Positions 2,690 to 49,170 of a DNA stretch of 64,000 bases are shown here, piece after piece; the first letter of the stretch is position 1, and each line of letters opens with the position of its first letter. The notes under the pieces are model-generated. The model was not told where the DNA came from and did not search any database. It saw only the letters and a list, made by a program, of their open reading frames with translations. Origin of the DNA: Carcharhinus longimanus (Eukaryota); contig JASCQW010000122.1 of the NCBI GenBank assembly GCA_030264375.1, positions 22,960,517 to 23,024,516 on the forward strand. The letters are read 5' to 3'. The translations under genes and the position numbers were made by a program.

Positions 2690-4730
2690 GCCATTGTTGC
2701 ATGCGCAATCCAAACAGCAGGCATGTGCACATGCTGAGTACATGGTGCCAGACTGCAGGCACGCATGAGGGTGCCACAGACAAAAGCACACATGCGAGGC
2801 ATCAGACAAGCATGCCCACGAGGCGTCACAGACGAGAGCGAAACAGCGTGCACGAGAGTGCCACAGAGCGAGAGAGCGTGCACGAGGATGCCAAAAAGCA
2901 GGACGGTGTCCGAGCATGAGAGCACGCACAAGGGTGCCAGAGAGCGCGAGCGTGCCAAGGAGCAGGAGCATATGGGAGAGTGAGCGAGAACACAAGCGTC
3001 AGGGAGTGAGAGGGAGTGAGCGAGTATGCCCAAGAGCAGGCACGTGCGCGAGTCAGAAAGCAGGCGTCACTGCGCGGGTGAGCCAGAGAGCAGGCGCTCA
3101 CACACTGAGGGTGCAACAGATAAGAGTAAGTCTGCACGAGGTGATACAGATGAGTGTGCATGCCTGCAGGGTGCCACAGGCGAGAGCATGCGTGCACGCA
3201 TAGCCACAGATGAGAACGTGTGCAAACTGCCACAGACAACAGCATGCACACACGTGCGAGGTACCACAGACAAGGGTGTGTGCGTGAGCTGCCACATATG
3301 AGTGCGCACGCCTGCAGTGCCAGAGATCACAGCACGCGTGCGAGTTGCTGGAGACGAGAGCGTGTGCGCAAGGGTGCCACAGAACGAGGTAGAGCGTGTG
3401 CGAGGGTGCCACTAAGCAAAGGAGCACCAAGGGTACCACGGAGCGCGCAAGTGAGCGTGCTCTCGCACACAAGGGTGCCACAGAATGAGCGAGAGAGAGA
3501 GGGAGAGAGAGAGAGAGAGAGAATGCTCACGTGCGAGGGTGCCACAGATCAAGAGAGAGAGAACGTGCAAAGGTACCAGGGAGAGAGCGAGGGTACAACA
3601 GAGTACGAGAGGGTGCCACGGAGTGACAGTAAGACAGCACCATCGTGCATGAGGATGCTACAGAGCGAGCAAGAGAGGGAGCGAGAGAAAATGCACACCA
3701 GGCCACAGAACGAGCAGGAGGGCGCGTGAGGGTGCCACAGAATGAGCGAGACACAAAATGCGCACTCACGCACGAGGGTGCCACAGAACGAGTGAGAGAG
3801 CGCGCTCACGCACGAGGGTACCACAGAACGAAAGAGAGAGAGCGCACTCGCGTACAACAGTGCCACAGAACGAGCGAGAGAGAGCGTGCACTCCTGCGCG
3901 AGGGTGCCACAGAACAAGTGAGAGAGCGCGAGCATTCACGGACAAGGGTGCAGAGACACAGAGGGCGCAAGCGAGCGCTCACATGCGAGGGTGCCACAGA
4001 ACAAGCGAGAGAGCGCGCTCGCACGCAAGGATGTCACAGAACGAGTGCGTGCACAAGGGTGCCCCAGAACGAGCAAGAGACCACGCGAGGGTACCACAGA
4101 ACGAGAGCGCGCTCACGCGTGAGGGTGCCACAGAACAAGCCAAGAGAGAGGGTGCTTGCGCACAAGGGGTGCCACAGAACGAGCAAGAGAGAGAGACAGA
4201 GAGCACTCGCACGCGAGGGTGCCACAGAACGGGCAAGAGAGAGCATGCTCACACGCAAGTGTGCCACAGAACGAGAGAGTGCGCTCATGTGCGAGGGTGC
4301 CATAGAATGACCAAGACCACGTGAGGGTGCCACAAAATGAGCAAGAGATTGCAGGAACGAGCGAGAGACCGCACGAGAAAGAGCAGGTGAAGGTGCCACA
4401 GAATGACAGATCGTGCGCTCGTGCATGAGGGTACCAGAAAAAGAAAACGCGCACGCTCGGGTGCCACAGAACAAGCAAGAGCCCACGTGAGGATGCCACA
4501 GAACGAACAAGAGCGTGCTCACATGCCAGGGTGCCACAGGACGAGCAAGAGAGCGCACTCACACGCGAGGGGGCCATAGAACGAGGATTCGCGCGCGAAG
4601 GTGCTACAGAACAAGCTTGAGTGCGCGCGAGGGTGCCACAGAACGAGCGGGTGAGTGCACTCATGCGTGAGGGTGCCACAGAACAAACGAGTGTACTGGC
4701 ACACGAGGGTGCCACAAAATGAGACAAAGC
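2690..4730 (+). repeat. Diverged CpG-rich minisatellite, ~40-bp unit, roughly 50 copies, core GAGGGTGCCACAGAACGAG
   Basis: Core recurs about every 35-45 bp (e.g. ~3774, 3814, 3900, 3988, 4122, 4215), linked by GA/GC/CA dinucleotide-rich variable segments. Source of the many overlapping spurious ORFs. Confidence 0.93.
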
Positions 4731-5310
4731 ACCCGAGCCAGCAGAGTGAGGCGCACACGGGTGCCACTGACCCAGCCGCTGCAGGCACAAGCGTGCACAC
4801 CAGGGCACCAGCGGAAGTGGGGAGCGATCACACACGCCAGGGGGAGCGGGGTGGGAGCGCACACAATAGAGTACCAGTGGGGAGCGGGGCGCAGGGCGCG
4901 CATGCACCAGGGGGAGAGAGGCACGACACCAGGGTGGGGAGTGCACACGCCAGAGCGCCACTGAGCCAGGGGGAGTGGGGAGTGGGGCGTGACACCGGGG
5001 AAGCGGGAAGCGGACACGCCAGGCGCCACTGAGCCAACAGGAGCAGGGTGCGGGGCGGGTGTGCCAGGACACCGAGCAAGCACGTGCATGCAAGCCAGAG
5101 GGAGAATGTACATACGAACCAGAGCAAAAGCACACACCAGAGAGAATGCTCGTGCGAGAATGTGTGCACGTGCGAGAGTGAGAGAGACAGACAGCATGTG
5201 TGTGAACGTATGTAAGCAGTGTGAGAGGGAGTGTGAGAGACTAAGAGTGTGCGAGTGAGATTGTGCAAGCGCATATGAGAGGGAGAGGGAGAGGGAGTGA
5301 GAAAGAGTAA
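4731..5310 (+). repeat. G-rich degenerate repeat (cacacgccagggggag...gggg) grading into a decayed GA/GT microsatellite
   Basis: Repeated cacac(g)ccaggg / gtggggag motifs at 4790-5070, and GA/GT-rich tract at ~5130-5310. Confidence 0.75.
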
Positions 5311-5798
5311 GATTGCATCTGATCGTGTTAACAAGAATGTGAATGTTGGATATGAGAATTCAGCTCTCCTAAAATTTGACAGCGGAAGAGACAGCATCAC
5401 GCCTCCCATTAAAATAAAAATCACAAAAACTTAAGACTTAAATACTTTAATGGAAACAGGTTGAACTAAGCAATCAGATATTCGGAACAATATGCTTCAA
5501 CAACTTTGTACTCCAATTTTAAAATTCCAAAAACAAATATAAAATGCAAAGCACACAAGTTCCATGCAATCCATAGTGAAAATGATACTAATAAACGTAA
5601 CAAAGTGCACCAGCTCAAAACAAACTTCTGCACTAAACCATTTAATTAGCTTTCCAAATTTTGTCTCAGGGGATTTGGGGCTGGTAGGAGGAGCTTACCT
5701 GACAACAGGCAACGGACAAATTTTAAGATGGGAATTCGTTAAGGCGGAGATTGAGCAGAAGTGTAAGTAACATGACTGTAGCAACCAAACTTTGGATT

Positions 5799-5985: not shown

Positions 5986-7226
5986 CAGGGATTCTACTTC
6001 CTGCACTCGTATCAGCATCTACGTTTCTGACATGTGCACAGAAAAGACACTGTTCTAGAAAATCAAATACTACGAAGCCCATAATTTGTGTCTTCTTAGT
6101 TTATGTATTATTATATGGTGGATCAGTTGAGTAGATTGCCCGTTGAACTCTTATATAAATTCATTCAGATTCACCATGCATTGTGAGCACTAAAATTATT
6201 TATTCAATGTTAGAAAATGTTATAGATAATTAGGTTCACAAACACAATTCCACCCTTATTACTTCATGTTATTTTAATCCAACATTTTCCCCGTCTCTTC
6301 CTCTTCCCCATTCCAGACTCCGGTAGTTAACCTGCTCTACATCCCCTGATGACAGACTACAATCAGCAAAAAGAGGTTGTTCTCAGATTTCAAATCACAG
6401 TGCCAAGTGGTTTGCATCAATCTGTCCCTCCCTCGACTGGGTGGAGTGAGGGACCACAAGAAATAATTCACAAGCCAACGGCTGATCACAGTGTTTTAAA
6501 AAAAACCATCTAGGATGAATACTATGAAAAAGAACTATAAAGGCACAATACATTAATTTGGCCAAATTGGTGCAATGATCAAGGCCCACAGGAAAAACTA
6601 TGCAATTTGAACGGTGATTTCTGGAAAACATTTCTGTGGGAAAGCTTTATTTTTATTTGGAGCTGAGTAAGCAGTTCAGACACTCAAAGCATGGCATTGA
6701 TTTTATTTTTTAAACATTTCTTGCCAGGATTCTAAGCATTTCATTTTTCACAAGTAATTCCATGCATACCTTATGCATAATTTAAAAAGAATACAAAGAA
6801 TAGGTGCAAATACCATCAGCTAGTACCCAAATGAAAACTGTGCACGTGTGAAGCCTGGCCAATAGCACTCTCCCATTTACAAATCAACTGACTATGGAAG
6901 CAGCAGGAACAATACCTGGCGCGAACTGATGTTTGAAAAAGTTCACCTTTCCATCAGAAAGTCATTCATTGCTGGCAACATGACACATGGAACATTCTGG
7001 CATGGAATGTACAACATTTAAATTCAATTACATTGTTGATGTGTATTACTGTAAATACATAGAAGACAAATAACAATCAACGTCATTTCGTTCGGGTGCA
7101 GACATGGATCTCCCCTAATGCCTTCTGAGTAAAGGAAAATTCAGAACATTTGCATCTGAATTGTACTCTGATCCCAGAAGTGTGCAGCATTATCAGTGAA
7201 GTGTTTCTTGTTCCCCCTTTACCTAC

Positions 7227-7359
7227 CTGTTTTGGGGTCCACATCTGCTGGTAAGTGTGGTGGAGGGTTACCTGGTGTGAAGTGTTCATTGCTGTATGTT
7301 ATCAGTGGCGTTAACGGGTGGACGTGATGGGGATGTTGCACAACGGGTACTTTGTTAGA
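7227..7359 (-). CDS. TCF7L2: Internal coding exon of transcription factor 7-like 2 (equivalent of mammalian exon 6; context-dependent regulatory region upstream of the HMG box)
   Basis: Minus strand reads ...ctttcttttggcag|TCT AAC AAA GTA...CCC AAA ACA G|gtaggt. Length 133 bp, phase 0 in, phase 1 out. Translation [44 protein letters not shown](G) matches the TCF7L2 peptide as I know it; HHVHP and [18 protein letters not shown] distinguish it from TCF7L1, LEF1 and TCF7. Missed by the ORF track, which lists another frame. Confidence 0.97.
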
Positions 7360-7395
7360 CTGCCAAAAGAAAGACAGGAAAGGAGTGAGTTAGAC
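7360..7395 (-). promoter_or_regulatory. TCF7L2: 3' splice acceptor, polypyrimidine tract and branch point of the TCF7L2 exon
   Basis: Minus strand gtCTAACtcactcctttcctgtctttcttttggCAG. CTAAC branch motif (plus gttag, 7389-7393) lies about 30 nt upstream of the AG. Confidence 0.9.
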
Positions 7396-10300
7396 AACAG
7401 CAACCAATCGATGAACCATAACTTAAGACAAATGGCATCGAGTTGAAGGGGGCCTCCAACAGGGGACACTTGAACATATTAAGTGTTGTCAAAAATCAGA
7501 GGTGTGCATTAGATGATGAATGGTTCCCAGTCAGATTTTATTTTGATATATGTCATCTCTCTTCTGCTATCAATTTAAAAGAATTGTAACAAAAGAGAGT
7601 GATTTGAATCACTCTGCACTAAAGCAACCATATCTGTTACAATTTATCAATCAGGTTTTTGTTACTTAGCAAATATCCACATTTCATCAAGTCAACACCC
7701 AAAAGAAAACTCCATTAGAAATGAACCATCTCACAGTTGTCCAAAAAAAAAACTCATCCAAGGGAAGAGAAATGGTGAAAAATACAAAACTCTTTGGGTT
7801 GTAACAAAAAACAGCTGTCATCACCTTAGGGGCTTTGCTTTTACCTGGTATATTTAGCTCAGTTTATGAATTTTCAGGAACAGAAATATTATTTAAGCCT
7901 TTTGTCCATTTTATTGACTCCAATTGAACTTGCCCACAAAACTCTGTAACCATTACAGTCCAAAAGACCAATCACAAGGGCAAGGAACAATTTTTATAAA
8001 AGCCTATTTTGATTAACATCAACATAAAATAACCACAGTAACCAAAGATACTTGGGTCATTGTGCAACAATAAGCCTTTACAATAAATTAGATCCAACAC
8101 ACTATTTGTTTATGGGGATGTGGGTTGACAAAGCCAGCATTCAGCTCCTATCCCCAAGTTATCGTATTGTGAATTTAAATATAGATATAAAAATGGGCCT
8201 TTAACCACGAGTTTGAGGAAATATTTTCACATGTCTTGAGAATAATTTTTTTAAAAAAACTATTTATGTCATCTGCTTTATTCAACTAGTATCATATATG
8301 TGCACAAAGGAAAGTGAGTACATGATTTAAATTCAATCTTCGTTAACTAGCTGAGGTAAAAAACAGTAAACCAGATGGAAGATTCATACGAAAGTAAAAA
8401 CCTGAAAACATCCAATCTCAACTCATTCTGATTTTTTATTGTGCCCCATCACCCATCCCTTATGTGGACCCACCAGTGACATCTAGCAACAGTAGATCAG
8501 TACTGCATTTTTCTTTTAAAAATTAAAAAAAGTTTATCCAAAAAAGTAACAGAGAATATTTTTGAACTTGTAAAACCATATTGGTATTAAGTTTCTTCTG
8601 GTTCAATTTTGCGCAAAGTGCGCAAAAGCTACTTTTTGCAGTTACTCGCAGGAATGTGCACATTTTTGAAAAATCACAATTGACGTGCAGGGTTCACAGG
8701 GTTAATACCGTTACTACTTAGACTTTTAGTATCACTGTAAACCAAAAGGCAGTCATAAACAAGCAGGAGAACCTTTAAGAAAAACAGATCTGCTTCTCAT
8801 CGAAGCAAATGAGAAGTAAAACCTTGAACTTTAGCACAAAGATTTCATCATGATGCTACAGGGCATTTTCAGCTGTGGAGTCTGCAGCTGCTTGCACTTT
8901 GCGTGAAGGCTCTGTCTACTGGCATCATAAGTCTCCTGCAAGTTTATGCTTCATAAAGAATTTGCTGTAGAATCCTGAGAGCAAACAGCAGGAGGCTACA
9001 GCTAGTTATTTACTGTCTACAGTCTCTCCTGTTTCTAATTGGCGCCTGCTACTGTCGTAATGAGTTTATATGAGGCATGGACAATATATAGATCATGATT
9101 CAGTTTATTCCCCTTCATAAATGATTTGAAAGTCCCATCCCATCATCAACAACAAACTAATTTCAATTGTAATGAAACATTTATTAACAAAAAAAAACAA
9201 TTAGGGCCCAATACAATCTGACTTCCATCCGTCATATTTTAGAGATTTCTTTGATCCTGCACTGCATTCCCTTCAAAATCTATTTATTTGGTTAATATTT
9301 CAACCAGGTTAGTGAAGAAGAGCATTAATTTAACATGCATTAACACACAGGAAAACAGTGGTTAGAATATTACCTCCTTTGCAAAGAACACAGATCTGAT
9401 ACAGCCGCAAGAACATTTCCAAAGAAAGTATGCACAGAGCCGTTCAGCTCTCTCAGCTGTATCTGGACTTGACCTACTGCAACCTTTGAACTACACCCTC
9501 GCTGATTAATCAGGAACTGATCCAACTCTCTATTTAATACCTTGCCAAGGTTTAAGATTAACTTCAACTCTTGCCCCATTTTGAGCATGTAAATAACAGG
9601 CCTAGTTACACGTTTTGCATAAAATAGTTCTCCACATCCACCTCAATCACTTGCACTATTTTAAGTGCTTGCACATTATTTTGTTCCAGCCTTCTATTCT
9701 GATAGAAATTAAGCTTTAACCGCCATTCATGGCAATGTGGGCTTAAAAATGAAATCATATAATATTTTCCCCCACACCCTATTTTTTGTTAATCCACAGT
9801 GCTCGGACCTGTACACAACAGCAGTTACTCCTTCTCCATTGGCTGCAAGGGGCCAGATGAGTTGTGCAAGTCTCAATCCAATTTTGTTAGGCACAATTCT
9901 AAGGCACCAAACTACCCAAATGTGGCACTAAATAATCAGTTTTATTCAGAAAAGCCAGAAGAATACTTGCAAGTAGGTAACTTTGCTAATTTTGGATTTT
10001 TGAGGCTTTCCAGGATATGGTCAATGCTTTGTCTGGACTAAGATCATTTGACACAAGGGGCTCAAATATCATCCAAAAGAGGAACACAATATTCACCAAA
10101 AATGTAAATTAAGTAACTTTCTGGATGAATAGTTGAAAACTAAATAATAAACTAGTAAAAACAGCAACTAACTCATTTTCAGATAATTAGTAGAAAGAGA
10201 GAAGAAAAAACTGAGAAACACAAGGGCGGGGGGAAGTGGGAGAGGGAGGGTAGAAAATAAAAAAAGAATAAAAGGAACACTTCACGCTCCACAAAAAAAT

Positions 10301-13300
10301 GTATTTGCATGGATTCATGCATACAAACTAAATCAATATTGTTTACTGAGACTCAGCTTAATGCACAAAACATGGCAGACCAGTAATTTCATCCAAATTT
10401 ATTTTGCATCGCGCGACACTGCAGTCCAGTTTGTCCAGTGTTCCCAAATTGATTGAATTCAGATACCCTATAAAACTCATTAGGGTAATAAAGCAAATCA
10501 GGTGCTACAAAAAAATCTGTAGAGCATACCGAATATAATATAAAAAGTAGTTACCATCCATAAGACAATGCAACTCTTCAGATTAAATCAGAGGTTAAGC
10601 ATGAAAAATGGCAATAAAAAGGACCGAGAAAGTAAAAGTTGCTTGATCATAAATACCACAAAGTGGGGGAATAAATTAGGCCTAGCCCAAATTCTATATA
10701 TTCATTTTAAAAATCACAAGTCAGTGTTAGTGTATTTCAAGAAAGTACATTTATCAGATAACTATCATCTATTAAGATAGTAATGGAGGAAGACTTTATT
10801 CAACTCAGGAACTTCTCATTTACCAATCTGGTGGCTGTTTATTTTGTTTTAATGTACGTGATGTATTTAATTCATAAAAATATAAGAAGAATTTCCAAGT
10901 AGTAGATCTGATTTCCTTTTTTTTAAAAAAACTTTCACATCTGATTTTCAAGCCAAGTGAAAATGTTGAAGAACAAGTCTATGGGGCAACTCTTCAATGT
11001 CAATGATTAGCATGGATTTTAAACCAAATCTGACTTCCAATAACATGCAAAGGGGAAAAATACTCTTTAGGCTGAAGAAGCCTAAAATATGCACAGTCCA
11101 AATGACCAAGATTCAGCACTTAGTAACTGCAGCGATGTTAATTCAGCTCTCAGGCACAATTTCTAACCTGGTGATCGGTATCTACATTCAAGTACTAACG
11201 AGCATGGAACGTTCACACCCTAAATCGCACATCAGCAACTGAATTCAGTTAAAAACTATGCAGTCCACTTTTGTTCTGAACTAAAAGCAACTTATGTAAA
11301 TAGGTAATAGTGTTGCATGGGGCGGTGGGGGGGGGGGGGCAAAAAGTGTAATTATACTGTACAAATACAATTTTTTATTTTGTGAATACTCCCCAATTCC
11401 TAAAGTTTTCCATTGTTCCTTGAGGGACACCACCCAAGAAAATGATGAATGCATTTGACTTAGCTGCTTATGCACTTAAGATTTTTAAAAAAAGCATCAA
11501 TAAAATATATCAGCTTCATACATAGTTCATTTGTTCATCATTGTTATTATGAGTTCTTTCTAATACAACATACTTGTAAAGTGGAGAATAGAGAGAAATA
11601 ATCATATTCTAGTTTATTTCATTAAGGGTGAGTAATTATTTCCAGAATAGGTGAAGGAGTGTGGGGTGGGTATTATTTTAAAACAAAATGCCTCTTAGAA
11701 CATATTTAGCAGTTTTTAACTTATGTGGCAGATGCAGTGATTTTTCATTAACTTCACCTGTTAAAAATATGCATTACAAAAGAGATGTATGATAAAAATC
11801 AGAGATATAAAACTACAATCACTTATAGACAGAACCATACTGCCGCACTATCAATGAACGTGACTTCTACTGGGGATTAGGGATCACCTTCTGTGATGCT
11901 GTCCGTTCCTCCTGTGAAAAACACAAACCTGTGGCCTTGTATGCATGACACACCTGCACGGGCGCAAGTATAAAATGCATGACTTTGTGCCAGATTTTAC
12001 AGCCCTGCTTCCAATAACCAGCAACAACCCCCGCACCCCCCCCCTCAAAAAAAACACCTTCCCAATTGGCAATCTTAAGCATTTTTATCCCTCTGGTAGA
12101 ATTTTCATCCTTAATTACAGTAGCCATCAGTGGGAAATTATATCAAATAATCTTGTCACTTTGCTCTTTTTAAAAGTGTGTTATTTGGGATTACATGAAG
12201 GAAAGAGGATGTTAGAATATGAAGCTGCTGCCAAGGGAGGAAATGAAGGAAATGCCTGTAGGAAGTGGGACTGTCCATCAAACAGTGGCAGTGGGCAGGC
12301 TGTGAAGGGAAACCCCTCCTCTTGGATCATTGCACAACACTTTACCCAGGAAACTCTAGAATCAACCTCTGACCTTTCAAGCGTACTTAAGCATCACATT
12401 CCAAATAAGCTGCAGTGGGAGATATTTCACTAGGGTGGACCCTACACAGTATTCACAATCAGGAATGTGGCAGTCAAAGATTGATTGAACACTCATACTC
12501 CCTCCCCGCATTTTTTTAAAAAAATGGTAACCCGAGAGAAATGAAAGCTTGCCGTTCACCTCTGATGTCATTAATCAAGAGGCAGGCAAAACAAACTCGA
12601 GCGGCTGTGACCGTCTTTCTAGCCAGTCCCTTCTACTGAATGCACCCCTATTGCGTTCATTGCAGTTCTGTGCAGCTGAAGAAAGATTGGGTCTGAAAAG
12701 TGCATTTGTGCTCAAAGTACAATAAAACAAAAGCAGCTACACAAGGGGGCTTGTCAGGCTGCCTTCCCGAGGCTAATTCTGGCAAGTCCAATGCTTTGCT
12801 TAAATTACTAGCCCTGAGCTTGGCTGTACCCAGACATGGCTTACTGTTCCAAAGTTACTAATCTTAATGGTCTGCAACACTACATTCTCTCATTCTGAAA
12901 GTCTGCTCTCTATTAACTCCCTAATTGCTGGTCAATTATGCCCAACTGCATTTTTTCTTAAAAAAAGAGTTTTTTTAAAAATAAAAGAGCTATTGACAGT
13001 TAAATTTTGCAACTCTCCCCACAATGATAACTTTCCATTAACAGAAGTTGATGGATTTCCTAAAGGACAAAATTTAAATACATACTTTCATTCAACTTTT
13101 CCTTCACATTCTCACCCACCGAAAAGAAATCCTTCACACCTGAGTAAGCATTTTCTTTCAAATCTACTTTTCCTATTCTTATTTATACAGTGGTCTGCGC
13201 CCTTTTCACAGTATTATACAGCTCATTTCTGGCCAAGGTCTTGCCCTTTTGTTAACTGGCCATTGTTCCCAGGGACAAGGCCTTCATTGACTAGTAAAAC

Positions 13301-16300
13301 TCTCCTGTTCAGAAAGAGGCTCCTCTTCTCCTCCAACAAACGATGACAGGACCACTGACACGACAGCATACAAGACAAAACTGCATGACCAGGCAGTACA
13401 AAACCTCTTCAGAATGCTCTCACATATTTCCACGCTGTTCCAGCTGTCAAGAAAGAAAGACCACTTTCTGGCCACCCAATTGTTACAATTGTATGAGGCA
13501 AACCAAACTAAAATCCAGCTTTGGGGCCTACTATCCTCTTAAATCATTTGGCAGAGGACTAGAGTTATTAAATGCATTTCTTATGTTAAACTATTAAGTA
13601 CTCAGCTATATTAGTCCTTAGCATATTTCGGGGAGCAGGAAGATTTTAATGTATTTCAGTGAAACAGTCGCCTCTCTGTTAGGGCGGCATTCTCAAGAAC
13701 TTTCCTACCTAATGACTACCTTAGTGGCGCTCGGGTTTCAAAAGACAAATTCACAAGCATGTCAGACTATGTATTCAAGAGCAAACCAAGCTCACTTCTT
13801 CAACATACTACTTTCCCTATATGTAAATAACTAAAAGTAGGCACTTGTAAAAAATTCCACAGTGAAAAAACATTGAAACTTCAATTTGGAAGATTTTCTC
13901 AATCGCCATTTTCTGAACCTCATAGCAAAGCTAATGTAGAGCAGAAAAAACAAACTGGTGTTTTTTAGAAGGGGGGGTGGTAGTGTGAACAGGGGCTTGA
14001 TGAGCCCACACTGAAATGCGTAGTCAGGACACTCATGTCTTGTAAAGGGGTAATTAAAGCTGCTAGATAAACATCGAGAACAGAAGATCACAAATGAAGA
14101 AGCAGAAAAGGTAGATTAACATGATATCACTGCATGTTATAGTACATTAAATACCGCTCAATAATATTCGAGTTAACGCAAATGGAGGGTGCATTCCATT
14201 GCAACTGCAGTGGCTTACTGAAAGGAGCCCTTTATTCCAACTGCTTTAGTAATTCCACCCGCTTTAGACATACACTGGCCATCTATAAGTCTTGAAGTCA
14301 TAGGAAAAAAAGCATTTGAGATTGACATTTGGAAGGTTCGAGAATAACCCATAAGTGTAATTTACACAATATCAGAAGTTTTGGCTATTACAGGGTGTTA
14401 AAATGAATGGTTAGTCCATATGATTCTTTTTCAGAACATATTTGATATTTGCCCTTACTAACCTAATAAATATTTGTCAGTGACAAAACTTTTGCAGTTA
14501 TCTGCCCAAGTTAGCTATTGAGTAATCCAATCATTTGAATTTAATATTTAATTTTTTTTAGTAAGCTTTAGATAAATCTTGCAGTTCAGTTCATACATTT
14601 TGAGTGAATATGGACACTGATCTCAATACTCATGTAATTTTATCAATTGTGCATTCACTTAAATGATTGTTTCTTATTTCTGATAAGATTGAGACTGAAG
14701 GCAGAAAGGTCCAGCACTACAAAGCAGTTACCCTTTCTTACAATGCACGTATGCTTATTGAGAGGAGCCTTGAGCATCACTCCTTTCAGTGAAAAAAAAT
14801 CAATTTGCACTTACAGCAGTTCAGCCTAATGTATAAAAGAGTTTCACAGAGTCCACAGTACAATGACTGAACTCTGTGTAGGATGTGTGTGCCAGACTGG
14901 ACAAGTAGTACAAGGAAAGTTAACTGACAGGCAATGATCGATTGGTGTTTCAGGTTGACAAATTCCAGCAGTACAAGACATCTGCCAAGCATGTGACCTG
15001 ATAAATAGCAGCACTAAGGCTCAAATCCAAGTATTCATTTCAGTATAAAACAGAAGTCAGTCGTGTGCGAGCAAGAAAAACTGAGGGGGAAAAAAGACAA
15101 TGGGACAATTTTATAAATGTACACTAAAGGTTTACCTTTTTTTGTAATGATTATGTTCGCATGGCCTTCAAAACATATGAAAATTGATGACAGTACCTTT
15201 GTGGCTATCATTCTGCCTACAGCTCCTCTCAGTAACATTAATGTAGCTTCAATCAGTGAAATTACCATATTAAGTGATTAAGCAACAAAATATAGTAGAA
15301 GCCTCTTAATGGGAACACCTGCATGGAAAGCAAAATGTTTCCTTTATCCAATTACTACTAAACAAATATAAAAATCTTGAGTGGCAATCAAGTGCATATT
15401 GGAGGTGTCAAAAACTGAAGTCATTAATTGATCTTTAATAGCAGATTTGCAATATAGGGAAGAAGACGTGGAACTATTTCAGTGTTTGTGAGAATTGCAT
15501 TCATCCAACACAATTAAAAAGCAGCTTGATCAATTTCCATCGCAAATGGTCCTAAGCACTTCCTTAAGCAGATTTATCTACTACTTCTGTTTATCTCTCT
15601 TGATTCAATCATGTTGCAGCTTTGCAACATCAGGCCAAAATGTTCACCACAAACCATCAGTTTTGTCATTAGAGTACATTAAGATTTAAAATCAGTCATG
15701 AAGTGAATGCAGCCTCTCAATTAATAAATAATTTGACTGTATCAGGTGTAGTCTACCAGGCTTAAAAAACAAAAATAAAACCTAAACATGTGTGGGTATT
15801 TTAAAATGCGAGGGCAAGGGGGTGGGAGGAGTAAGGGGGCACGGGTGGGACAAATCAAAATATAGCAAGAAAGAGACCTAACAAAGGTAGATTCAATTTT
15901 ATAAATGATAGATACTATACTTAATGTGTTCAGAAAATTTAACTCATGTCCACAATGATGCAACTTCATACCACTTCAAAAAATTGTGCTTTTTTTAAAT
16001 ACCACTAAAATATAATATGCAATTTGAAACTTTCGGACATTATTACTTCAACATCAACAAGTTCTATAAAGAGTTATTGCACATCATGCTTAATGCTTTA
16101 ACCAATTCACACAGGAATGCTAACGGTTTGCTGTTAAAAAAAAGTCCCACAGGACACTCGACACGTTTGCGTATTTGTTATTCAAATACCAGCAAATACC
16201 AAGTATGAAATGACAGTGAAGTACAACAGTGATATAAAAATGTTTAGTTGCTTAATTATAATGGAGGAGGGGAAATCACAGGGAATGGTTATCAATAAAA

Positions 16301-17631
16301 TAATAAAATATCAGCTTTAAAATGTTCGTTTTATTTGTTCTGGTGGTATGTTCAGAACATCTGGCACTAATTTTGTTCATAGCAGGGAAAAGACAGCCCC
16401 ACAGCAGTGGAATACATATACAAATGAAAACCTCAACCTATATACATATTTAAGAAAAACATCAGGATTTGTTTTTAAATCCAATCAGAACGCATAATAT
16501 TAGACCAAATCGTCATTTGGGTACATTCTAAAATATCATTGAATGGAAGGCTTTTGTTACACCACCCCACAGTGTACAAAAACATGCCAAAACCTCAAAA
16601 GTGAGGTTTTCCTGCAAACTCAAAAAGACTGTTCAGAAATGCTCCACATTTTCCTTTATAAGCATTTAAGAAAATCTTTCGCTCCCTCGCAAAAACCTAA
16701 ATGAAAATGAGCACATTCGAGAACACCAACTTGCTGTCTACAAGATTCTACAATTACCTGTTATATCTGAAGTGTGCCACGCTTCTAATAATTTATTTAA
16801 GCCTTTTTTTTTAAAACATACACTTCAAATAAGTTAACCTTCAATATAGCAAATCATTGCGTGCAATCTGGTCAGCAATAACGGATAATGTATTTAAGGT
16901 TTTAAAGAGAAAGAATATAGGGCAGGGAGTAAATTATTCTATAGTGTTAGCAATACTTCTTTTGAATACGTAAAGCATTTTTGTTGAAAATGATAAATTA
17001 AAACACTGTGCTTTTTAGGATTCAACGGAAGATAATGTAACAGTTAATTAAGAAAAAATACAACCTTTTCTCTACCTACATCCTTCAAAATGACATACAT
17101 TAATTTTTATTTAAAAAGTCTCTGTTATATATTTGGTTTTGTACATCACTTGCACACTGTTGCTTTCAAAATAGCTTCGACAATTGAGCCACGGAAGCAA
17201 CTCTACCTCCAGACATTTGAGTATATTTCACTTAAATTTTGGAAGTTAAATTTAACTAAATGAAAGCATGACAGTGGAATGTCGGAATTAATCAGGTACA
17301 GTGCTAAAATGTAAATTCTGCACTGAAATCTGAGTGCAGAATATCCAATAGTAAGCAGCTATCGAGAAAAATAAATCAGTATTGAGCTGGTTAAATCAAC
17401 TTTTTTGAAGAAATCCCAATGTCATGCTGCCTGCAATTGGATTTTCCTTTTTTGTTTCTTCTTCACAGACAGATTCTTCTGAAAGCGGCAACACAAAGGT
17501 CACAGTTTCAAGTATTGGATAGAAGGTCGCTTGCCTTAACTGACCACCTCTTAACCACAGTAACTGGCCTTATCTGAAGCCCATCGAGTGAAATAAAACA
17601 CAAACGTGCACTGTAGCATATGGTAACTTAC

Positions 17632-17754
17632 CCAGCTGTTTAGATTGAGATGCCAGCAACCAAACTGATGGAGAAAGGAGAACCCAGAGGCTAGCGTTCC
17701 TCCTTTATTGTTCCCTTCTTCCATTCCCAGCAAAATCGCATCCCTCGGGTACAT
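17632..17754 (-). CDS. TCF7L2: Candidate alternative first coding exon D of TCF7L2 (41 aa: MYPRDAILLGMEEGNNKGGTLASGFSFLHQFGCWHLNLNSW)
   Basis: agcagc-ATG (A at -3) at 17754, 123 bp = 41 codons, ending TGG|GTAAGT (plus acttac 17626-17631). Perfect donor in phase 0, in frame with the 7359 acceptor, with a purine-rich UTR-like leader upstream. Confidence 0.65.
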
Positions 17755-19684
17755 GCTGCTTTATCTTCTGTTGTCTCTTAACCTCTACAACTTTTCCCCC
17801 CTTTCTTTCTTGCCTTGGTGCCGACTGCGCTTTGTGTCTTCGTGGTTTTCCTAGCGTCTTTTTTTCTCTTAAAAAAGTACTAAAAAAAATGTCTCAAAAG
17901 ATCAAAAGCTTTCCATTTCTGTGGCCTGGTGTTTTTAGAACCAACATTCTCATTCAAGTTTGCCGTTAGTAACATCTTAGTCCTGGTGTAGTCCTCTGTC
18001 TGCCGTGTAGCAGGTACCAAAATTTAGGACACACTCAAATGATAACATAGATCACTGCACCAAAACGCTCACTTAGAAATGAGTAAGCCCGCACACAGGG
18101 GTATAACCCCATGCGTACTATTTATTTTCTTTTCAAAGCCTACAACTCTCCTAGGATTACCAAAATGACAATGCTGCAACTCTATATGGAAAGGTATCAA
18201 TAAGTGCAGCAGCAAGGAGACAAGCATTGGTTAAGGGAGCATGATCAACAAACTGTAGCATGCAGTCACATCTGTGGGAATGTCAAACCCCTCACGCTGA
18301 ACTTCTGGGGGTAGAGTTGCAAGAATGCTCTATTTTCTTTGACACGGTGACACTATAATATATCTCACGCACACAGACTCATATACATACAAATATATAA
18401 AAATATATGTTTAAAAAAAAGACACCTGTGAGGTCTTGCCATCAGTCCCAGCAGGTTTTTTTTAATTACAACAGTAAACAGGGTGGAGAAAAGGCAAAGC
18501 ACTAGACCTCACTGCAGCTTCTACTGGCTGACCTCAGCTACACACAATATACAAGAGCAGCTTTTGTATTACAAGGATTCTCTTTCCGAGTTGCTCTTTG
18601 CATACTGCTTCCCGTCGCTAATTGCATCCCCAAACAAAACCCTCTCCATCTCCAAATTGGGGGCAGCTCATATGTTCCAGAAAATGCTTTTCACAATGGA
18701 AGCAAAAAGTAATGAAATGTTCCCATTAACCACGCTCACCCCCCCCCCAACACCCCCTCCCACCCCTCCACCATGAATATAGGTGGCATAAAGCCCACGA
18801 TACCCTCCCACCAACCAAAAAAAACTCAACTTTTTAAAAACAAACTTTACAGGCATTCAGTTTTCTTAAAAATATAAAGTCGTTCAGTAGGCTCTGCAGA
18901 AGATGCCACATACTTTTCCTTCCCGTCTATCTGCCTGATCAGAAAAGTGACAAGACACGAGAACAGGGGAAACAAAACACTGTGCGGTTTTTTCCCTCTT
19001 TATTTCGTGCTCTGCACTAATCTGGCCTTCGCGTGCAAAGTGTCGGCCAGAAATCTTTAAGGCCTTAATACCAAAACAAAACCTTTGAATTCCCTTTATA
19101 TGGTGCAATACAGGCGCTAACAAAGGCAATGAGGCTACAGTTTGACATATAAAAAGCCCAACAACGAGGCAGCTAATTACATTCCCTCCCTCTATTCATG
19201 GTGGCCACCACACTCCAGCAGCTTCTTTTGTCACACGTGCAATTTCTTAAGTAAACTGGGAGTTTGGTTGCTGATGATGGACAGTTACTAATCATTTAGC
19301 ACAATGAACGCTAAGTGCGACAGAAAGGATGGGCAACTTCAACACAGATTTCTTTGGGATTGGAGGATGTGAGAAGAAAAAAAAAGGAGCGGGGTGGGGG
19401 CGGTGGAAGCTCGCCACACAGACGACGAAAGGTGAACACTTAAAATGCCAGATCCTTTCAGTTCACATATTTACCTTGCATCTACTGGGGGAGGGGAATC
19501 AAGCCCAAGACAGGAAGGGGTGACAAGCTGTCTTGTCAGCTTGGATCGGGAATGTCTCACTCGTTGAGACTTTGNNNNNNNNNNNNNNNNNNNNNNNNNN
19601 NNNNNNNNNNNNNNNNNNNNNNNNNNNNNNNNNNNNNNNNNNNNNNNNNNNNNNNNNNNNNNNNNNNNNNNNNNACATATTTAC

Positions 19685-19747
19685 CTTGCATCTACTGGGG
19701 GAGGGGGGAGGCCGGGGGGGAGTTGGTGGAGGGAAAGGCAAAAACAT
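19685..19747 (-). CDS. Weak candidate alternative first coding exon C (MFLPFPPPTPPRPPPSPSRCK)
   Basis: ATG at 19747-19745, 21 open codons, then AAG|GTAAAT donor in phase 0. Low-complexity, next to a gap, and the donor region is duplicated at 19465-19496. Confidence 0.3.
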
Positions 19748-20016
19748 GCTGTGGGAAAGAGAGACTGCAAATCAAACTTGCCAACTCCGATTAACTTCAG
19801 ACATTACATCAGGAACAGAATTCTAAATACTTCCATTACCCAATAGTTTTTTCGTTTCACTCCCCCCCCCCCTCAAACCACCAGAAAAGTTTTCCATAAA
19901 ATCTCAATTTAAAACAAAACACACACCAAAGCACAATTAACCTAAATGTCATATTAGTCAATTGGAAAATAATGCTTTCGAGCATTCAGTCCTTCTTAAA
20001 AATTTTGCTAACTTAC

Positions 20017-20200
20017 CATTTACACCTGCTCAAATTACGATGCTTCACACTGCCTGAATTCAAACATGCTGCCGTTCCTGTGCTACAGCATAAAATCAGC
20101 CGGCTCTTTGCGATGTGGGCAGATCCACTGGGGGGCAGCACCCTACCTGAGCCACTTACAGCCGAGATGCTGCTGAGATAGGGACACGAAGCGATTACAT
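20017..20200 (-). other. TCF7L2: Candidate internal alternative first exon B of TCF7L2 (ends in ATG)
   Basis: Plus aacttac|catttacacc is minus GGTGTAA-ATG|GTAAGTT: second perfect ATG|GTAAGT (ATG 20019-20017), in-frame TAA immediately before it, phase 0. Kozak context weaker (T at -3). The 5' boundary is a guess. Confidence 0.55.
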
Positions 20201-20880
20201 CCAACTCCAGCTCTCCAGGAAAAGATGCTCAAGTTCAGGTCTATTCAGTGAATTACCTTGCTTCATGGGAAAGAGATAATGAGATGGCAGCACTCATTTG
20301 ATCAGAACCAGCCCCAAAAATCACACCAACAGTTTTCAGAGAGGAACAAAAGAACAACAGTTGCTTGCTTTCTTGGCGACATTAAAACCAGTTGCAGCCT
20401 CCCATAATGTTAAATTGGCTGGTATTTTTGAAGCCAGACCAGAGAGAGAGAGAGAGAGACATACAAAAAAAAGTAGTTCCTCCCCCCCACCACTCCCCCC
20501 GCCTCCCGCAAGGTACATAAAGGCTAAACCTACCGTTTATTTTGCCCACATAGCCAGCTCAGTTTAATCACGACCGCCGGGGAATGCTGAACTATGAAAT
20601 GATTTTGATACATCAATTCAAAGTTTCTTTTTTAAACAAAAAAAAGGCAACTTAGCAAGTTGTGTATCTGAGCTCTAATATTTGCCACAGCCAAATGTGG
20701 CAAGCGGTTCCATAAAGCTTCCCTGCCCACTTTTGAAGCCTGCGTTACTAACACACGCAGAATGACACCACTGAGCGCCTTTAAAGGATACTAGGGAAAA
20801 AAAATGACTATTGATCTTCAAATGGTGATAATTGAAAAGATCAAAAGATTAAACAAAATCAAAAAAATGCGCTGACTTAC

Positions 20881-21150
20881 CATGTTATGCTTTTTTTTGT
20901 TACAACTTGGTTGAAATTTCAGTCAAACAAGCTTCATCGGAGATGTCAAATTTTTGGCGGACTGTGATCGTATTACTTCCGCAGCCTTGCCTCACAATAC
21001 TTCAGAACTTTTTACCTAGCTTTGGTTTACTTTGAAAGCTGCAGCTCAGCAAACCAGCACAAATTATCTTGCCACCTTCTACAGCTCTGATGCTTTGGCC
21101 GCTAACTTTGGAAGGCCCTTTACTACTGCATCAAAATTAGCATTGTCAAA
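20881..21150 (-). other. TCF7L2: Candidate internal alternative first exon A of TCF7L2 (5' UTR plus start codon only; gives M-SNKVPVV...)
   Basis: Plus gacttac|catgttatgc is minus GCATAAC-ATG|GTAAGTC: perfect donor directly after an ATG (20883-20881), A at -3, phase 0 matching the 7359 acceptor. The 5' boundary is a guess. Confidence 0.7.
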
Positions 21151-44625: not shown

Positions 44626-47600
44626 AAACAACATTTATGTGGCTGGTCCAATTCAGTTTCTAATCAATGCTAATTCCTAGGATGTTGATAGTGAGGGATT
44701 CAACAATGGTAGTGCCACTGAAAATCATGATGAGATGGTTAGGATATCTTTTATTAGAGGTAGTCATTGGCTTGCCACTTATCTGCTCCCAGCATTGTCT
44801 GGGTCTTGCTGTTGGGCACGGACTGTTTCAGTATGTAAAGAATTGTGAATGGTACTGAATATTGTGCTATGAATGAACATTTCAACTTGTGACTTTATTT
44901 TAGAATTGGGAAGCAGCTGAAGATGGCTGGGCCTAGAACATTACCCTGAGGAACTCCTACAGCAATATCCTGGGACTGAGATTGACCTCCAACAACCAGA
45001 AGTATCTTCCTTTGTGCTAAGTATGATTCTAACCAGTGGAGGGGTCCCCCTGCTTCCTATTGACTCCAGTTTTACAAGCACTCCTTGATGCCATATACAT
45101 TTGCCTTGATGTCAAGGGTCATCACTCTCACCTCTTGAATTCATGTTTGTCTTGTCCATGTTTTGACAAAGAGTAAAATGAGGCTAGGAGCTGAGTGGTC
45201 CTGGCCAAACCCAAATGTAGCCATCAGTGAGCAGATTGTTGCTAAGTACCACTTAATAGTATTGTTGACGACCCTTCTATCACTTAACTGATGATCACCA
45301 GCAGACCGATGGGATCATGATTAGCCAGATTGGATTTGTCCTGTTTTTTGTGTACAGGACATACCTGGGCTTTTTCCCACATTGCCAGGTGGATACCAGT
45401 GCTATTGCTGTACTGGAACAACTTGGCCAAGGGCACAGCTAGTTCTGGAGCATAATGCTTTAGTATTGTTGCTGGAATATTGTTAGGGCCCATAGCCTTT
45501 GCAAAATCCAGTGCATTCAGCCATTTCTTGATATCACATGGAGTGAATAAAATTGTCTGAAGACTGGCACCTGTGACATCGAAAACCTCCAAAATAGGTT
45601 GAGATGGATCATCCTCTTGGCACTTCAGGCTGGAGACTGTTGAAAATGCTTCAGATTTTTCTTTTGCACTGATATACAGGGTCTTTTACCGAGAATGATA
45701 TTTATGGAGCCTTCTCCTCCAGTTAGTTATTCAAGGTTGGATGTGGCTGGACTGCACAGCTCAGATCTGATCTGACGGTTGTGAGATGGCTTAACCCTGT
45801 CTATGCTACATGCTTTTTTCACTATTTGGCATGCAAGTATTTCTATGCTGTAACTTCACCAGGTTGACATCACACGTTTGGGTATACCTGGCTCTGCTCC
45901 TGGCACGTCCTTTCACACTCTTCATTGAACCGGGATTGATCCTCTAGTTTGATTGCAACATTAGAGTGGGGGTTTTGTCAGGCTGCGAGGTTACAGACTG
46001 GTGTTGTTTGCAATAATGTTGCTGCTGATGATGCACAGCGCCTTATGGGATGCCCAGTTTTGAGTTGCTAGATCTGTTTGAAATCTATTCCTTTTACTAG
46101 CATGATGATAGAACCACACAATGCAATGTAGGGTATCTTCAATATGGCAAAGTAATTTAATCTCTGCAAGGACAGCAGGAGATATCCTTGCCCATGTGCG
46201 TTCTGATACCATGAGGCTAAATGGGATCCAGAGTTGATGTAAAGAACTCCCGGCTGCATACTCACTGTTATCCAATTAGGGGGGACAGGTATGGTGATAG
46301 TGGTGCCACATGGTTCTGAGAGCATGACTATGTCAACCTGTTTTTCTGTGGGACAGCTCTCCCAATTTTTATGCAAGTGTCCAGATGTTAGACTATGCAG
46401 GGTTGACAGAGCCAGGTTTGCCATTATCATTTCTAGTGCTTAGGTCAATGACAAGTGGTCCTTCCAGTTTCAATCCTCTTTGCAACTTTGTAGCTAACTG
46501 AGTGGTTTGCTAGGCCACACCAGATTTCCTCCCCTAAAGAACATGACTGAACCACATGGGTTTTTATGACAGTCGAGTGTGGTCACTATCACTAAGAGTA
46601 ACTTCTTAGTTGCAAATGTATTCACTGAATTTAAATTTCACTATCTGCCAATTGAGAGAGAACTGGGTAACTAGAGAAAGATCAATATGTGTCAAAAGCA
46701 ACGAGAACCCAGGAGATGACAGATAGCAGATGACTGAAATTGACTTTAAAAATACATGTTCACACTTCTTTATATTTCTATAAACTAACAAATCAGCTAG
46801 ATGACTTCATCCAAGGCTGGACCTACAGAATTTTCCCAAATCCTAGTGTATCACGTTCAATAGCTTGCTCCTCCAATAGACTCAAAATATCACTTAAGTG
46901 GAGACGAAGGGTCCATGTTTTTTGTGCCAAGGTTACCTTTGCAAACTGCAAATGTTGGCAATGCTGATGGACTAATTATAACCCGAAAATTTGCTAACCC
47001 AAAATAGTTTTTATAAATAACTTTTCTATTCTAAACATGAAAACTGCAAGAGCTCATGCAACTATTTTACATTAAAACTGAGAATGAGTGCGACATTCCA
47101 ATGGAACTGTCTGCAGGTGGTGCTTTTGAGCATCATGTTATGTGGCTCATTAACTAAAACATCTCTAACTTAACAAAACATATAACAATGTCCCTTGCAG
47201 TCGCCAGGAATTGAAAATAATTTCCATTTCTTAATCATTTTCACACAATCCCTTCCCCAAATGAGGCCTAAAACTCTCCAATAAGGTTAAACTTCATCTA
47301 ACTACCAAATAATTAAATCATCTTATAATTCCAAAGCTAGGTTTTCAACTGAAGCAGCAACAGGAGTAGAAACAGCCTTCAAGATCAGGCTCTCATATAA
47401 TCAGCACTAATATATTAAACGTGAAAAAGGTTGTTACAATCTTGGAAACACTGGGTAAAGATTCAACAAGTTTGTCTCAATCCAATATCCCAACTTAACA
47501 TTTGCCAAGATGGAAACCACTCCCCTCTGCTGCTTCAGCTGGAGGGGGAAAGCAGCTTAGGGCAACTCCTTTACCCCATCTTTGAAGAAAATAGCCTCTG

Positions 47601-47744
47601 GTTCATTTTCGCTCTCAAGTGAGTGGGTGCAAAGTCAAGCAGTGCCACCCATCCTTCTCTCCTCTCCTCACCCCCTCCCCCTGCATAGGTCATCCAACAT
47701 AGCCATTCCTAATGCTGCACTTGGGTCTCAGCTTCCTGCATGTT

Positions 47745-49170
47745 TGATTTGATTTTGATTTATTATTGTCACATGTATTAACATGGTGAAAAGTTTCTTG
47801 CGTGCTATACAAACAAAACATACCATTAAGACAGAAGGACACAAGAGAGTGCAGAGAGAGTGTTACAGTCAGTCATAGCTAGGGTGCAGAGAAAGATCAC
47901 CTTAATGCAAGGTAAATCCATTCAAAAGGTCTGACGGCAGCAGGGAAGAAGCTGTTCTTGAGTCGGTTGGTACGTGACCTCAGACGTGTGTACCTTTTTC
48001 CCAAAGAAAGAAGGTGGAAAGAGAATGTCCAGGACGCGCAGGGTCCTTAATTATGCTGGCTGCTTTGCTGACGCAGTGGGAAGTGTAGACAGAGTATTTG
48101 GATGGGAAGCTGGTTTGCATGATGGATTGGGCTACATTCACGACCTTTTGTAGTTCCTTGTGGTCTTGGGCAGAGCAAGAGCCATACCAAGCTGTGATAC
48201 AACCAGAAAGAATGCTTTNNNNNNNNNNNNNNNNNNNNNNNNNNNNNNNNNNNNNNNNNNNNNNNNNNNNNNNNNNNNNNNNNNNNNNNNNNNNNNNNNN
48301 NNNNNNNNNNNNACAGATTGTTGGTGACCTGGACACCTAAAAGCTTATAGCTCTCGACACTTTCTACTTCGTCCCAGTTGATGTAGACAGGGGCACGTTT
48401 TCCTTTATGCTTCCTGAAGTCGATGACAATCTCCTTCATTTTGCTGACACTGAGGGAGAGATTATTGTTGCTGCACCAGTTCACCAGATTCTCCCTCTCA
48501 TTCCTGCACTGTCTCATCATTGTTTGAGATCTGGCCCATTACGGTGATGTCATCAGCAAACTTGAAAATCAAATTGAAGGGGAATTTGGCCACACAGTCA
48601 TAGGTGTATAAGGAGTATTAGTAGGGGGCTGAGAACACAGCCTTATGGGGCATCGTTGTTGGGGATGATCGTGAAGGAGGTGCTATTGCCTATTATGATT
48701 ACAGTCTGTGGGTTAGGAAGTTCTATAAAATAACATATAAAATATGATGAAGTCATCAGATAGATGACTTCAGCTAAGACTGGACCTACAGAATTTTCCC
48801 AAATTCTAATGTGTCATGTTCAACAGGATACTCCACCGAGAGACTCAAAATATCACTTAAGTGGAGCTGAAGGGTCCATCACAGAGGGAGGTGCCCACCC
48901 CCAGCCAACAGAGTTTGGAGATGAGTTTCATGGGAATAATAGTGTTGAAGACTGAGCTGTAGTCAATAAATAGGAGTCTGACATAGATGTCCTTGTTACC
49001 TAGGTGTTCCAGAGTTGAGTGTAGGGCAAGGGAAATGGCGTCTGCTGTGGACCTGTTGTGGCAGTAGGCAAAGTGTAGCGGACCCAGGTAGTCCGGCAGG
49101 CTGGAATTGATTTGTGCCATGACTCACCTTGCGAAGCACTTCCTAATGATGGATGTCAGAGCCACCAGCC
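47745..49170 (-). mobile_element. 5'-truncated Rex1/Babar LINE relic
   Basis: [87 protein letters not shown], and a tail reading aataaatcaaaatcaaatcaaac on the minus strand. Confidence 0.92.
48721..48879 (+). repeat. Diverged direct copy of 46776-46916 inserted into the Rex1 element
   Basis: Shared blocks ttctataaa.taaca, tagatgacttca, ctggacctacagaattttcccaaat, agactcaaaatatcacttaagtggag and gaagggtccat. Confidence 0.9.

What the first reader, a model, noticed from the sequence alone, without database searches (positions are those of the whole stretch)
17632..17754. Alternative 41-aa N-terminus (MYPRD...CWHLNLNSW) for truncated TCF7L2
A good-context ATG opens 41 codons ending at a perfect phase-0 donor. 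The C-terminal half (FSFLHQFGCWHLNLNSW) is aromatic-rich and could be an interaction motif replacing the beta-catenin-binding domain. I have an unverified recollection of predicted tetrapod TCF7L2 isoforms starting MYPR and ending in W before SNKVP. If true, the peptide is constrained and essentially uncharacterised.
Basis: partly seen in the sequence, partly recalled or inferred. Interest (0 to 1): 0.7.

Follow-up and report, generated by a model that had tools for sequence, protein, structure and literature searches.

The report
Conserved alternative N-terminus of short TCF7L2
In a shark-type TCF7L2 gene, an alternative exon, seen spliced in a related species, encodes a 41-amino-acid start conserved from sharks to mammals; it would replace the beta-catenin-binding region in the known short brain form of this Wnt-pathway regulator and likely docks a still unknown partner protein.

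Summary
A 41-codon ORF (17754-17632, minus strand) ends at a phase-0 GT donor in the intron before TCF7L2 exon 6. The 17632/7359 junction is present in one contig of a related species. Database isoforms with this N-terminus exist in 16 named species from skate to rodents. Published variant numbering shows that human NM_001349870.2 very likely has it too. It is one of the known intron-5 first exons that make short ('dominant-negative') TCF7L2. A sibling exon at ~20017 supplies only an ATG. So the isoform is already annotated. What I did not find in print (10 searches; Vacik 2011 unreadable) is that the peptide is under protein-level constraint: conservation stops at the ATG and the donor, length changes stay in frame, and a hydrophobic core (residues 25-41) is kept in 40 variants. 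No eh1, WRPW or PxDLS motif, one stray LxxLL, no Pfam or PDB match, no confident fold. Translation is not shown. Best guess: a fold-on-binding docking motif for a beta-catenin-independent co-regulator.

The parts
17632..17754 (-). 41-codon ORF of an alternative first exon of TCF7L2 (ATG at 17754)
   Evidence: homologous N-termini
17632..17685 (-). conserved hydrophobic core, residues 24-41 (hydrophobic 25, 27, 28, 31; W34, hydrophobic 36, L38, W41)
17722..17724 (-). second in-frame ATG (M11) in strong context; kept in 20 of 36 41-residue variants, lost in the divergent ones
17626..17631 (-). phase-0 splice donor GTAAGT
   Evidence: junction
17755..18065 (-). 5' untranslated part of the exon (minimum extent, from a relative's spliced contig; start site unknown). 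In-frame stop three codons before the ATG, purine-rich so no acceptor, upstream ATGs at 17916-18048 whose short ORFs end within it
7226..7359 (-). shared TCF7L2 exon 6 (SNKVP...PKTG), acceptor AG at 7361-7360
20011..20043 (-). 3' end of a sibling alternative first exon ending ATG|GTAAGT (ATG 20019-20017); gives a one-residue N-terminus
   Evidence: loose end at exon 6 in run X3 maps here with 1 mismatch in 26; Met-SNKVP models
20875..20883 (-). candidate third first exon ending ATG|GTAAGT (ATG 20883-20881); junction not seen
   Evidence: sequence only; outside the stretch laid

Best explanation
This is a spliced alternative exon in TCF7L2 intron 5, likely a first exon, whose conserved 41 codons would give short TCF7L2 its own N-terminus in place of the beta-catenin-binding region, and that peptide likely acts as a fold-on-binding docking site for an unknown co-regulator. 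Shown: position between exons 5 and 6, in-frame splice to exon 6 in a relative, conservation across jawed vertebrates, a sibling exon that gives only a Met. Inferred from mouse work: an internal promoter cluster fires in diencephalon and midbrain neurons and yields HMG-box proteins that cannot bind beta-catenin. Inferred here: choice among the first exons makes two classes of short protein, bare (Met-exon 6) and peptide-bearing. The peptide's variable Gly-rich middle is a linker; the core 25-41 is the binding surface (short amphipathic helix 25-31, Gly break, then W34/L38/W41). Whether the partner activates or represses is open. Odds by step: real spliced exon 0.97; translated and selected as protein 0.85; partner docking as the selected role about 0.6 of that.
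For: Junction 7359/17632 with GT-AG ends in a 462-nt contig that continues 311 nt upstream of the ATG. Isoforms in 16 named species: skate, sturgeon, squamates, birds, carnivores, rodents. Human NM_001349870.2, called a DN-TCF7L2 isoform (PMC13693294, passages), has published residues W34, P113, R243, K283, C337; 5 of 5 fit the mammalian 41-residue isoform and, of N-terminal lengths 0-259, only 41 fits the four body residues. Conservation stops at the ATG and donor: unnamed pairs 41/41 or 40/41 identical in the ORF are 3/14 downstream and 9/20 upstream. 29 of 30 profile hits are complete: 25 of 41 aa, two of 39, one of 42, one of 59, all in frame and changed in the N-terminal half or linker. 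On a 14-taxon tree 43 replacements average BLOSUM62 +0.02 against -0.66 for DNA-only evolution (0 of 250 simulations with even rates, 4 of 250 with uneven rates); ATG plus open frame survived in 1.2% and 3.8% of 4000. Positions 25, 27, 28 are hydrophobic in 40 of 40 variants and 31 in 39 of 40 while swapping mostly among F/L/V. Predicted disordered in the whole isoform, as docking motifs usually are (established knowledge). Short TCF7L2 works without beta-catenin and redundantly with the long form in embryonic thalamus (bioRxiv 10.64898/2025.12.27.696670, parts 1-4 of 5 read), which implies other co-regulators.
Against: No ribosome or peptide evidence. The junction is in 1 contig of 1 of 4 runs laid, 29 nt on the short side, depth 5.3, against 16.8 for the sibling-exon contig; run X1 crosses the donor unspliced. 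A first, tree-blind test of the replacements was not significant (P 0.09 and 0.08); with uneven rates the number of invariant columns was not unusual (P 0.36) and hydrophobic retention was borderline (0.052). No orthologous DNA was obtained, so no dN/dS. Protein searches see only intact ORFs; 1 of 30 hits (P0244) breaks off about halfway. The peptide evolves faster than canonical exon 5 (25/41 against 31/34, shark to rodent). No eh1, WRPW or PxDLS in 40 variants, LxxLL in 1; no Pfam or PDB match; helix periodicity not significant (P 0.22). Siblings that give only a Met show the short protein can be made without the peptide, and deleting the short-form starts changed few genes (37) in embryonic thalamus.
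Confidence: 0.52

Rival explanations
1. The peptide is translated and selected, but as a stability or localisation tag (N-degron or hydrophobic degron) that sets the dose or half-life of short TCF7L2, not as a cofactor site.
For: The first five residues are conserved apart from the core: M1 40/40, Y2 35/40, P3 37/40, R4 35/40. Met followed by a bulky residue is a known N-degron and N-acetylation class, unlike the Met-Ser start of the sibling forms (recalled). The disorder is dosage-sensitive and promoter choice is proposed to buffer protein level.
Against: Degrons rarely need an 18-residue pattern with fixed Trp and Leu spacing for the age of jawed vertebrates (inference). Residue 2 is H, D or N in 5 of 40 variants.
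Confidence: 0.18
2. The stretch is conserved as DNA or RNA (promoter, enhancer, splicing signals); the ORF is a tolerated leader and the peptide has no role of its own.
For: The whole block 17421-18335 is conserved in related species' contigs, as are other intronic blocks. The most invariant codons lie next to the donor. The tree-blind test was not significant. Ascertainment favours intact ORFs.
Against: Conservation ends at the ATG and donor; all length variants are in frame; replacements are conservative on the tree; hydrophobic positions swap residues but keep character. The 5 indels displayed for 17421-18065 all lie outside the ORF, but 20 indel rows were not displayed.
Confidence: 0.14
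3. The peptide acts within TCF7L2 itself, folding onto the HMG box or the Groucho-binding region or pairing two molecules, and so changes DNA binding.
For: Amphipathic hydrophobic pattern. No external motif match.
Against: The whole-isoform model shows no contact, but is too poor to count (mean pLDDT 35.7). About 165 low-complexity residues separate the peptide from the HMG box.
Confidence: 0.1

Closest known systems
Short / dominant-negative TCF7L2 from the intron-5 promoter (Ex1b-e of Vacik et al. 2011, not readable here; exon 5' set of Qi et al. 2023, PMC10208975)
   Same: Same intron, same acceptor (exon 6), loss of the first ~161 residues, several alternative first exons in a few kb (mouse: at least 10, eight within ~6 kb).
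   Different: The passages I read describe the product as a plain truncation; none mentions an exon-encoded peptide. Which numbered mouse exon matches this one could not be determined.
Human RefSeq NM_001349870.2 and predicted 'isoform X' models in other vertebrates
   Same: Very likely the orthologous isoform: five published residue numbers fit only a 41-residue N-terminus; XP_ models carry the peptide.
   Different: Annotation only; I did not see the human sequence itself, and found no functional study of the peptide.
dnLEF1 and dnTCF7 from internal promoters (PMC4963812, passages)
   Same: [quoted passage not shown]
   Different: Different intron (LEF1 intron 2). No homologue of the peptide in 165 kb of introns of the three paralogues in this genome (best E 0.13) or in the genome-wide search.

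Membership tests
Intron-5 alternative first exons of short TCF7L2 | lies between canonical exon 5 and exon 6 | tested here: met
   exon 6 at 7359-7226; exon 5 lies 11 kb beyond the window end, contig C122 23035523-23035422
Intron-5 alternative first exons of short TCF7L2 | splices to exon 6 in frame | tested here: met
   junction 7359/17632 in one contig of run X3, a relative; fused isoform models
Intron-5 alternative first exons of short TCF7L2 | is a first exon with its own start site | tested here: inconclusive
   in-frame stop 3 codons upstream, 20% pyrimidine before the ATG against 70% before exon 6, contig unbroken for 311 nt upstream; contigs cannot show a start site
Intron-5 alternative first exons of short TCF7L2 | one of a cluster of first exons sharing the acceptor | tested here: met
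   second exon ending at 20017 joined to exon 6 in run X3; candidate at 20881
Intron-5 alternative first exons of short TCF7L2 | product lacks the beta-catenin-binding N-terminus and keeps the HMG box | tested here: met
   P0002 matches only positions 138-222 of PF08347 plus PF00505; full-length P0009 matches 1-222
Intron-5 alternative first exons of short TCF7L2 | expression restricted to diencephalon and midbrain | not testable with these tools
   tissue of the runs not on record; mouse data
Intron-5 alternative first exons of short TCF7L2 | Vax-dependent promoter (recalled from Vacik 2011) | not tested
   paper not held; a plain count of TAATTR sites showed no clear enrichment
Intron-5 alternative first exons of short TCF7L2 | blocks beta-catenin/TCF reporter activity | not testable with these tools
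   needs an assay; which N-terminus published dn constructs carry is not stated in the passages read
Groucho/TLE-binding motifs (eh1, WRPW) | F/YxIxxIL or W/F-R/K-P-W/Y (patterns recalled) | tested here: not met
   0 of 40 variants
Nuclear-receptor box / CtBP motif | LxxLL or PxDLS (patterns recalled) | tested here: not met
   LxxLL 1 of 40 (fifth position Gly in 38 of 40), PxDLS 0 of 40
Conserved non-coding element with an incidental ORF | conservation independent of reading frame | tested here: not met
   edges at ATG and donor, in-frame length changes, conservative replacements; protein-level tests only, no dN/dS

The most novel reading that the evidence does not exclude
The peptide is a swapped-in effector domain, born in the jawed-vertebrate TCF7L2 gene, that recruits a co-regulator without beta-catenin. 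First-exon choice would then switch short TCF7L2 between a bare competitor and a Wnt-independent regulator of thalamus and midbrain identity, and 'dominant-negative TCF7L2' would be two different proteins.
Probability: 0.25. Interest if true: 0.8.

Novelty: new variant of a known kind. Interest (0 to 1): 0.5.

Why it matters
Short TCF7L2 is about half of the gene's brain transcripts and is needed for mouse vocalisation (PMC10208975). A 2025 preprint finds it acts without beta-catenin rather than as an antagonist and names no partner in the parts read. A peptide kept from sharks to mammals is a concrete candidate surface for that activity, testable with three point mutants. It would also mean that constructs of short TCF7L2 are not interchangeable, and that variants in this exon, intronic on the long reference transcript, could be missed: the TRND cohort study excluded non-coding variants.

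Tried and rejected
Internal cassette exon: rejected, in-frame stop and no acceptor upstream. M11 as the true start: rejected, lost in 16 of 36 variants while M1 stays. Duplication from a paralogue: no hit in 165 kb of paralogue introns, not their whole length; none in 16 lamprey proteins, of one 27-member cluster with 15 listed plus one singleton, which is weak evidence of absence. AlphaFold2: the isolated peptide gave one long low-confidence helix (pLDDT 64.6, pTM 0.28) and the whole isoform 35.7; neither was used for a fold search. Pfam and PDB: nothing for the 41-mer. ESM Atlas with the stoat homologue: one hit at 0.78, below the chance level. The third homologue search missed its aim: the profile took in the TCF body and only 845-2410-residue proteins were searched. 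Metagenome scan for orthologous DNA: one chance prokaryote-like locus, L002. Run search: no RNA holder on record, ten guessed RNA runs listed; four were laid. Runs X2 and X4 showed no junction; their contigs cover the exon only. No complex prediction was sent, because no candidate partner sequence was at hand. Vacik 2011 and Vacik and Lemke 2011 are not held; their figures or supplements may already show this ORF. Supplements of the 2025 preprint are closed; the Qi 2023 supplements gave no exon sequences as text. Earlier-findings look-ups gave nothing relevant.

Full report
Observation. Window 17754-17632 on the minus strand reads as 41 open codons from an ATG and is followed at once by GTAAGT. 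The ATG has A at -3 and T at +4, and an in-frame stop lies three codons upstream. The only canonical TCF7L2 exon in the window is SNKVP...PKTG at 7359-7226, 45 of 45 residues identical to shark proteins. The canonical exon before it lies 11 kb beyond the window end, so the ORF sits in intron 5 by mammalian numbering. On sequence alone it is not remarkable: 4 of 54 strong donors in this intron have an in-frame ATG at least 41 codons upstream.

Splicing. Contigs of four runs guessed to be RNA, out of 16 listed, were laid on 7000-18350. One contig of run X3, a relative, joins 7359 to 17632, skipping 10,272 bases with GT-AG ends, and continues to 18065, that is 311 bases upstream of the ATG. A contig of X4 ends at 17631; a contig of X1 crosses the donor unspliced; X2 covers part of the exon only. 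X3 also joins exon 6 to canonical exon 5 and to a third sequence, which maps to 20018-20043 with one mismatch and ends ATG|GTAAGT. That sibling exon gives a one-residue N-terminus. A similar ATG|GTAAGT lies at 20883-20875, unverified. The 50 bases before the 17754 ATG are 20% pyrimidine against 70% before exon 6, so the exon has no acceptor near its ATG and is most likely a first exon.

Conservation. A search with the 41-mer found 7 proteins among 10 candidates and one with the lizard N-terminus 10 among 11. With cluster members the N-terminus appears fused to exon 6 in models of 16 named species: little skate, sterlet, two lizards (one model mis-spliced), a python, chicken, two quails, stoat, otter, two marmots, two deer mice, guinea pig and hamster. 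It is 41 residues in all 17 variants then in hand. A profile search of 1.84 billion representatives gave 30 hits. 29 are complete: 25 of 41 residues, two of 39, one of 42, one of 59; 22 of 29 are followed by the read-through of a phase-0 donor; P0244 breaks off about halfway. Many are divergent and unnamed; two are fused to exon 6 sequence, and I infer that they are teleost-like. No homologue was found in paralogue introns of this genome or in 16 lamprey proteins.

Human. I did not see the human sequence. PMC13693294 (passages) names NM_001349870.2 and NM_001349871.1 as the DN-TCF7L2 isoforms. Two cancer papers (passages) give variants on NM_001349870.2 at W34, P113, R243, K283 and C337. All five match the 477-residue mammalian isoform with this peptide, and only an N-terminal length of 41 fits the four body residues. 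The isoform is therefore very likely a curated human transcript. The W34L call itself is one tumour-only FFPE variant and says nothing about function.

Protein or DNA constraint. No orthologous DNA could be had (one search gave one chance locus), so the tests are indirect. Unnamed records that run into the flanks show identity falling from 40-41 of 41 in the ORF to 9 of 20 upstream and 3 of 14 downstream. A tree-blind test of 35 replacements against single-base changes was not significant (P 0.09; hydrophobic retention P 0.08). A tree-aware test on 14 named taxa (43 replacements, same statistic on simulated DNA-only evolution) gave mean BLOSUM62 +0.02 against -0.66, reached by 0 of 250 simulations with even rates and 4 of 250 with uneven rates. 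The ATG and an open frame survived in all taxa in 1.2% and 3.8% of 4000 runs, indels not counted. The number of invariant columns was not unusual under uneven rates (P 0.36). Across 40 distinct variants, positions 25, 27 and 28 are always hydrophobic and 31 in 39, while 24, 26, 29, 30, 32, 33, 35, 37, 39 and 40 almost never are. M1, W34, position 36, L38 and W41 were required by my extraction pattern, though 29 of 30 profile hits met it. All protein searches favour intact ORFs. The peptide evolves faster than exon 5 (25/41 against 31/34). Taken together, protein-level selection is likely (about 0.85), not proven.

Anatomy and mechanism. The peptide has a conserved first five residues, a variable middle that takes the insertions and deletions, and a core at 24-41. 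It has no eh1, WRPW or PxDLS motif, and LxxLL in 1 of 40, no Pfam or PDB match, and no useful fold prediction. A short fixed hydrophobic pattern on a flexible tether in a disordered transcription-factor tail is, by general knowledge, most often a fold-on-binding site for another protein. I commit to that reading at about 0.5 overall; a stability tag (0.18), DNA-level conservation (0.14) and a contact within TCF7L2 (0.1) are the rivals.

What is known. Reviews (PMC6147171, PMC3429047, PMC3468386, PMC4963812; passages) report from Vacik et al. 2011 that promoters Ex1b-e in intron 5 give a 35-40 kDa TCF7L2 lacking the first 161 residues. Nagalski et al. (PMC3825142, passages) found it to be almost 70% of the gene's mRNA in embryonic thalamus. 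Qi et al. (PMC10208975; passages, section 13, supplement search) found at least 10 such exons and showed that deleting eight removes the short protein and impairs vocalisation. Gabriel et al. (bioRxiv 10.64898/2025.12.27.696670, parts 1-4 of 5) found short and long forms redundant and beta-catenin-independent in the embryo. PMC6772062, PMC7473649 and PMC4742197 (passages) added nothing on the peptide. A full-text search for four peptide words found no TCF7L2 paper, and the other nine searches listed no study of this N-terminus. Vacik 2011 itself is not held and may show the ORF.

Verdict. The feature is real and belongs to a known class, and the isoform is already in annotation. The new element is the evidence that one of these first exons encodes a constrained peptide as old as jawed vertebrates while its siblings give only a Met. 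That makes an open question, how short TCF7L2 acts without beta-catenin, directly testable. Novelty: new variant of a known kind. Interest 0.5.

Noticed in passing
window 12127-12566, 13048-13521, 14192-15079, 16245-16612: Intronic blocks between the alternative exon and exon 6 that align at about 85-95% to contigs of related species; candidate conserved enhancers.
   Followed up: no
window 19460-19720: The same ~35 bases, with a strong donor-like site, stand on both sides of an N gap (donors at 19474 and 19684); probably an assembly duplication of one site, possibly another first exon.
   Followed up: partly
window 20146, 20256, 20533, 26673 (minus): Further strong donor-like sites in or near the first-exon cluster; 26673 has an in-frame ATG 23 codons upstream. 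No junction evidence.
   Followed up: no
window 17916-18048 (minus): Five upstream ATGs with short ORFs inside the transcribed leader; they could damp translation of the peptide-bearing form if the start site lies above them.
   Followed up: partly
window 8137-8894 and 12685-13063: Very high contig depth in run X2, pointing to interspersed repeats.
   Followed up: no
window 2800-5400: Long degenerate tandem repeat that gives long spurious open frames in all three minus frames.
   Followed up: no
window 44800-49150 and 59250-59600 (minus): Broken reverse-transcriptase-like frames, likely LINE remnants (recognised from memory, not searched).
   Followed up: no
mammalian proteins P0050, P0054, P0060, P0067; P0055 and others: Another intron-5 coding exon inserted before exon 6 in mammalian models, and short isoforms starting inside it; not looked for in the window.
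   Followed up: no
proteins P0233 and P0244: A mammal-like variant with several changes at otherwise conserved positions, and a record that breaks off about halfway through the peptide; either relaxed copies or assembly artefacts.
   Followed up: no
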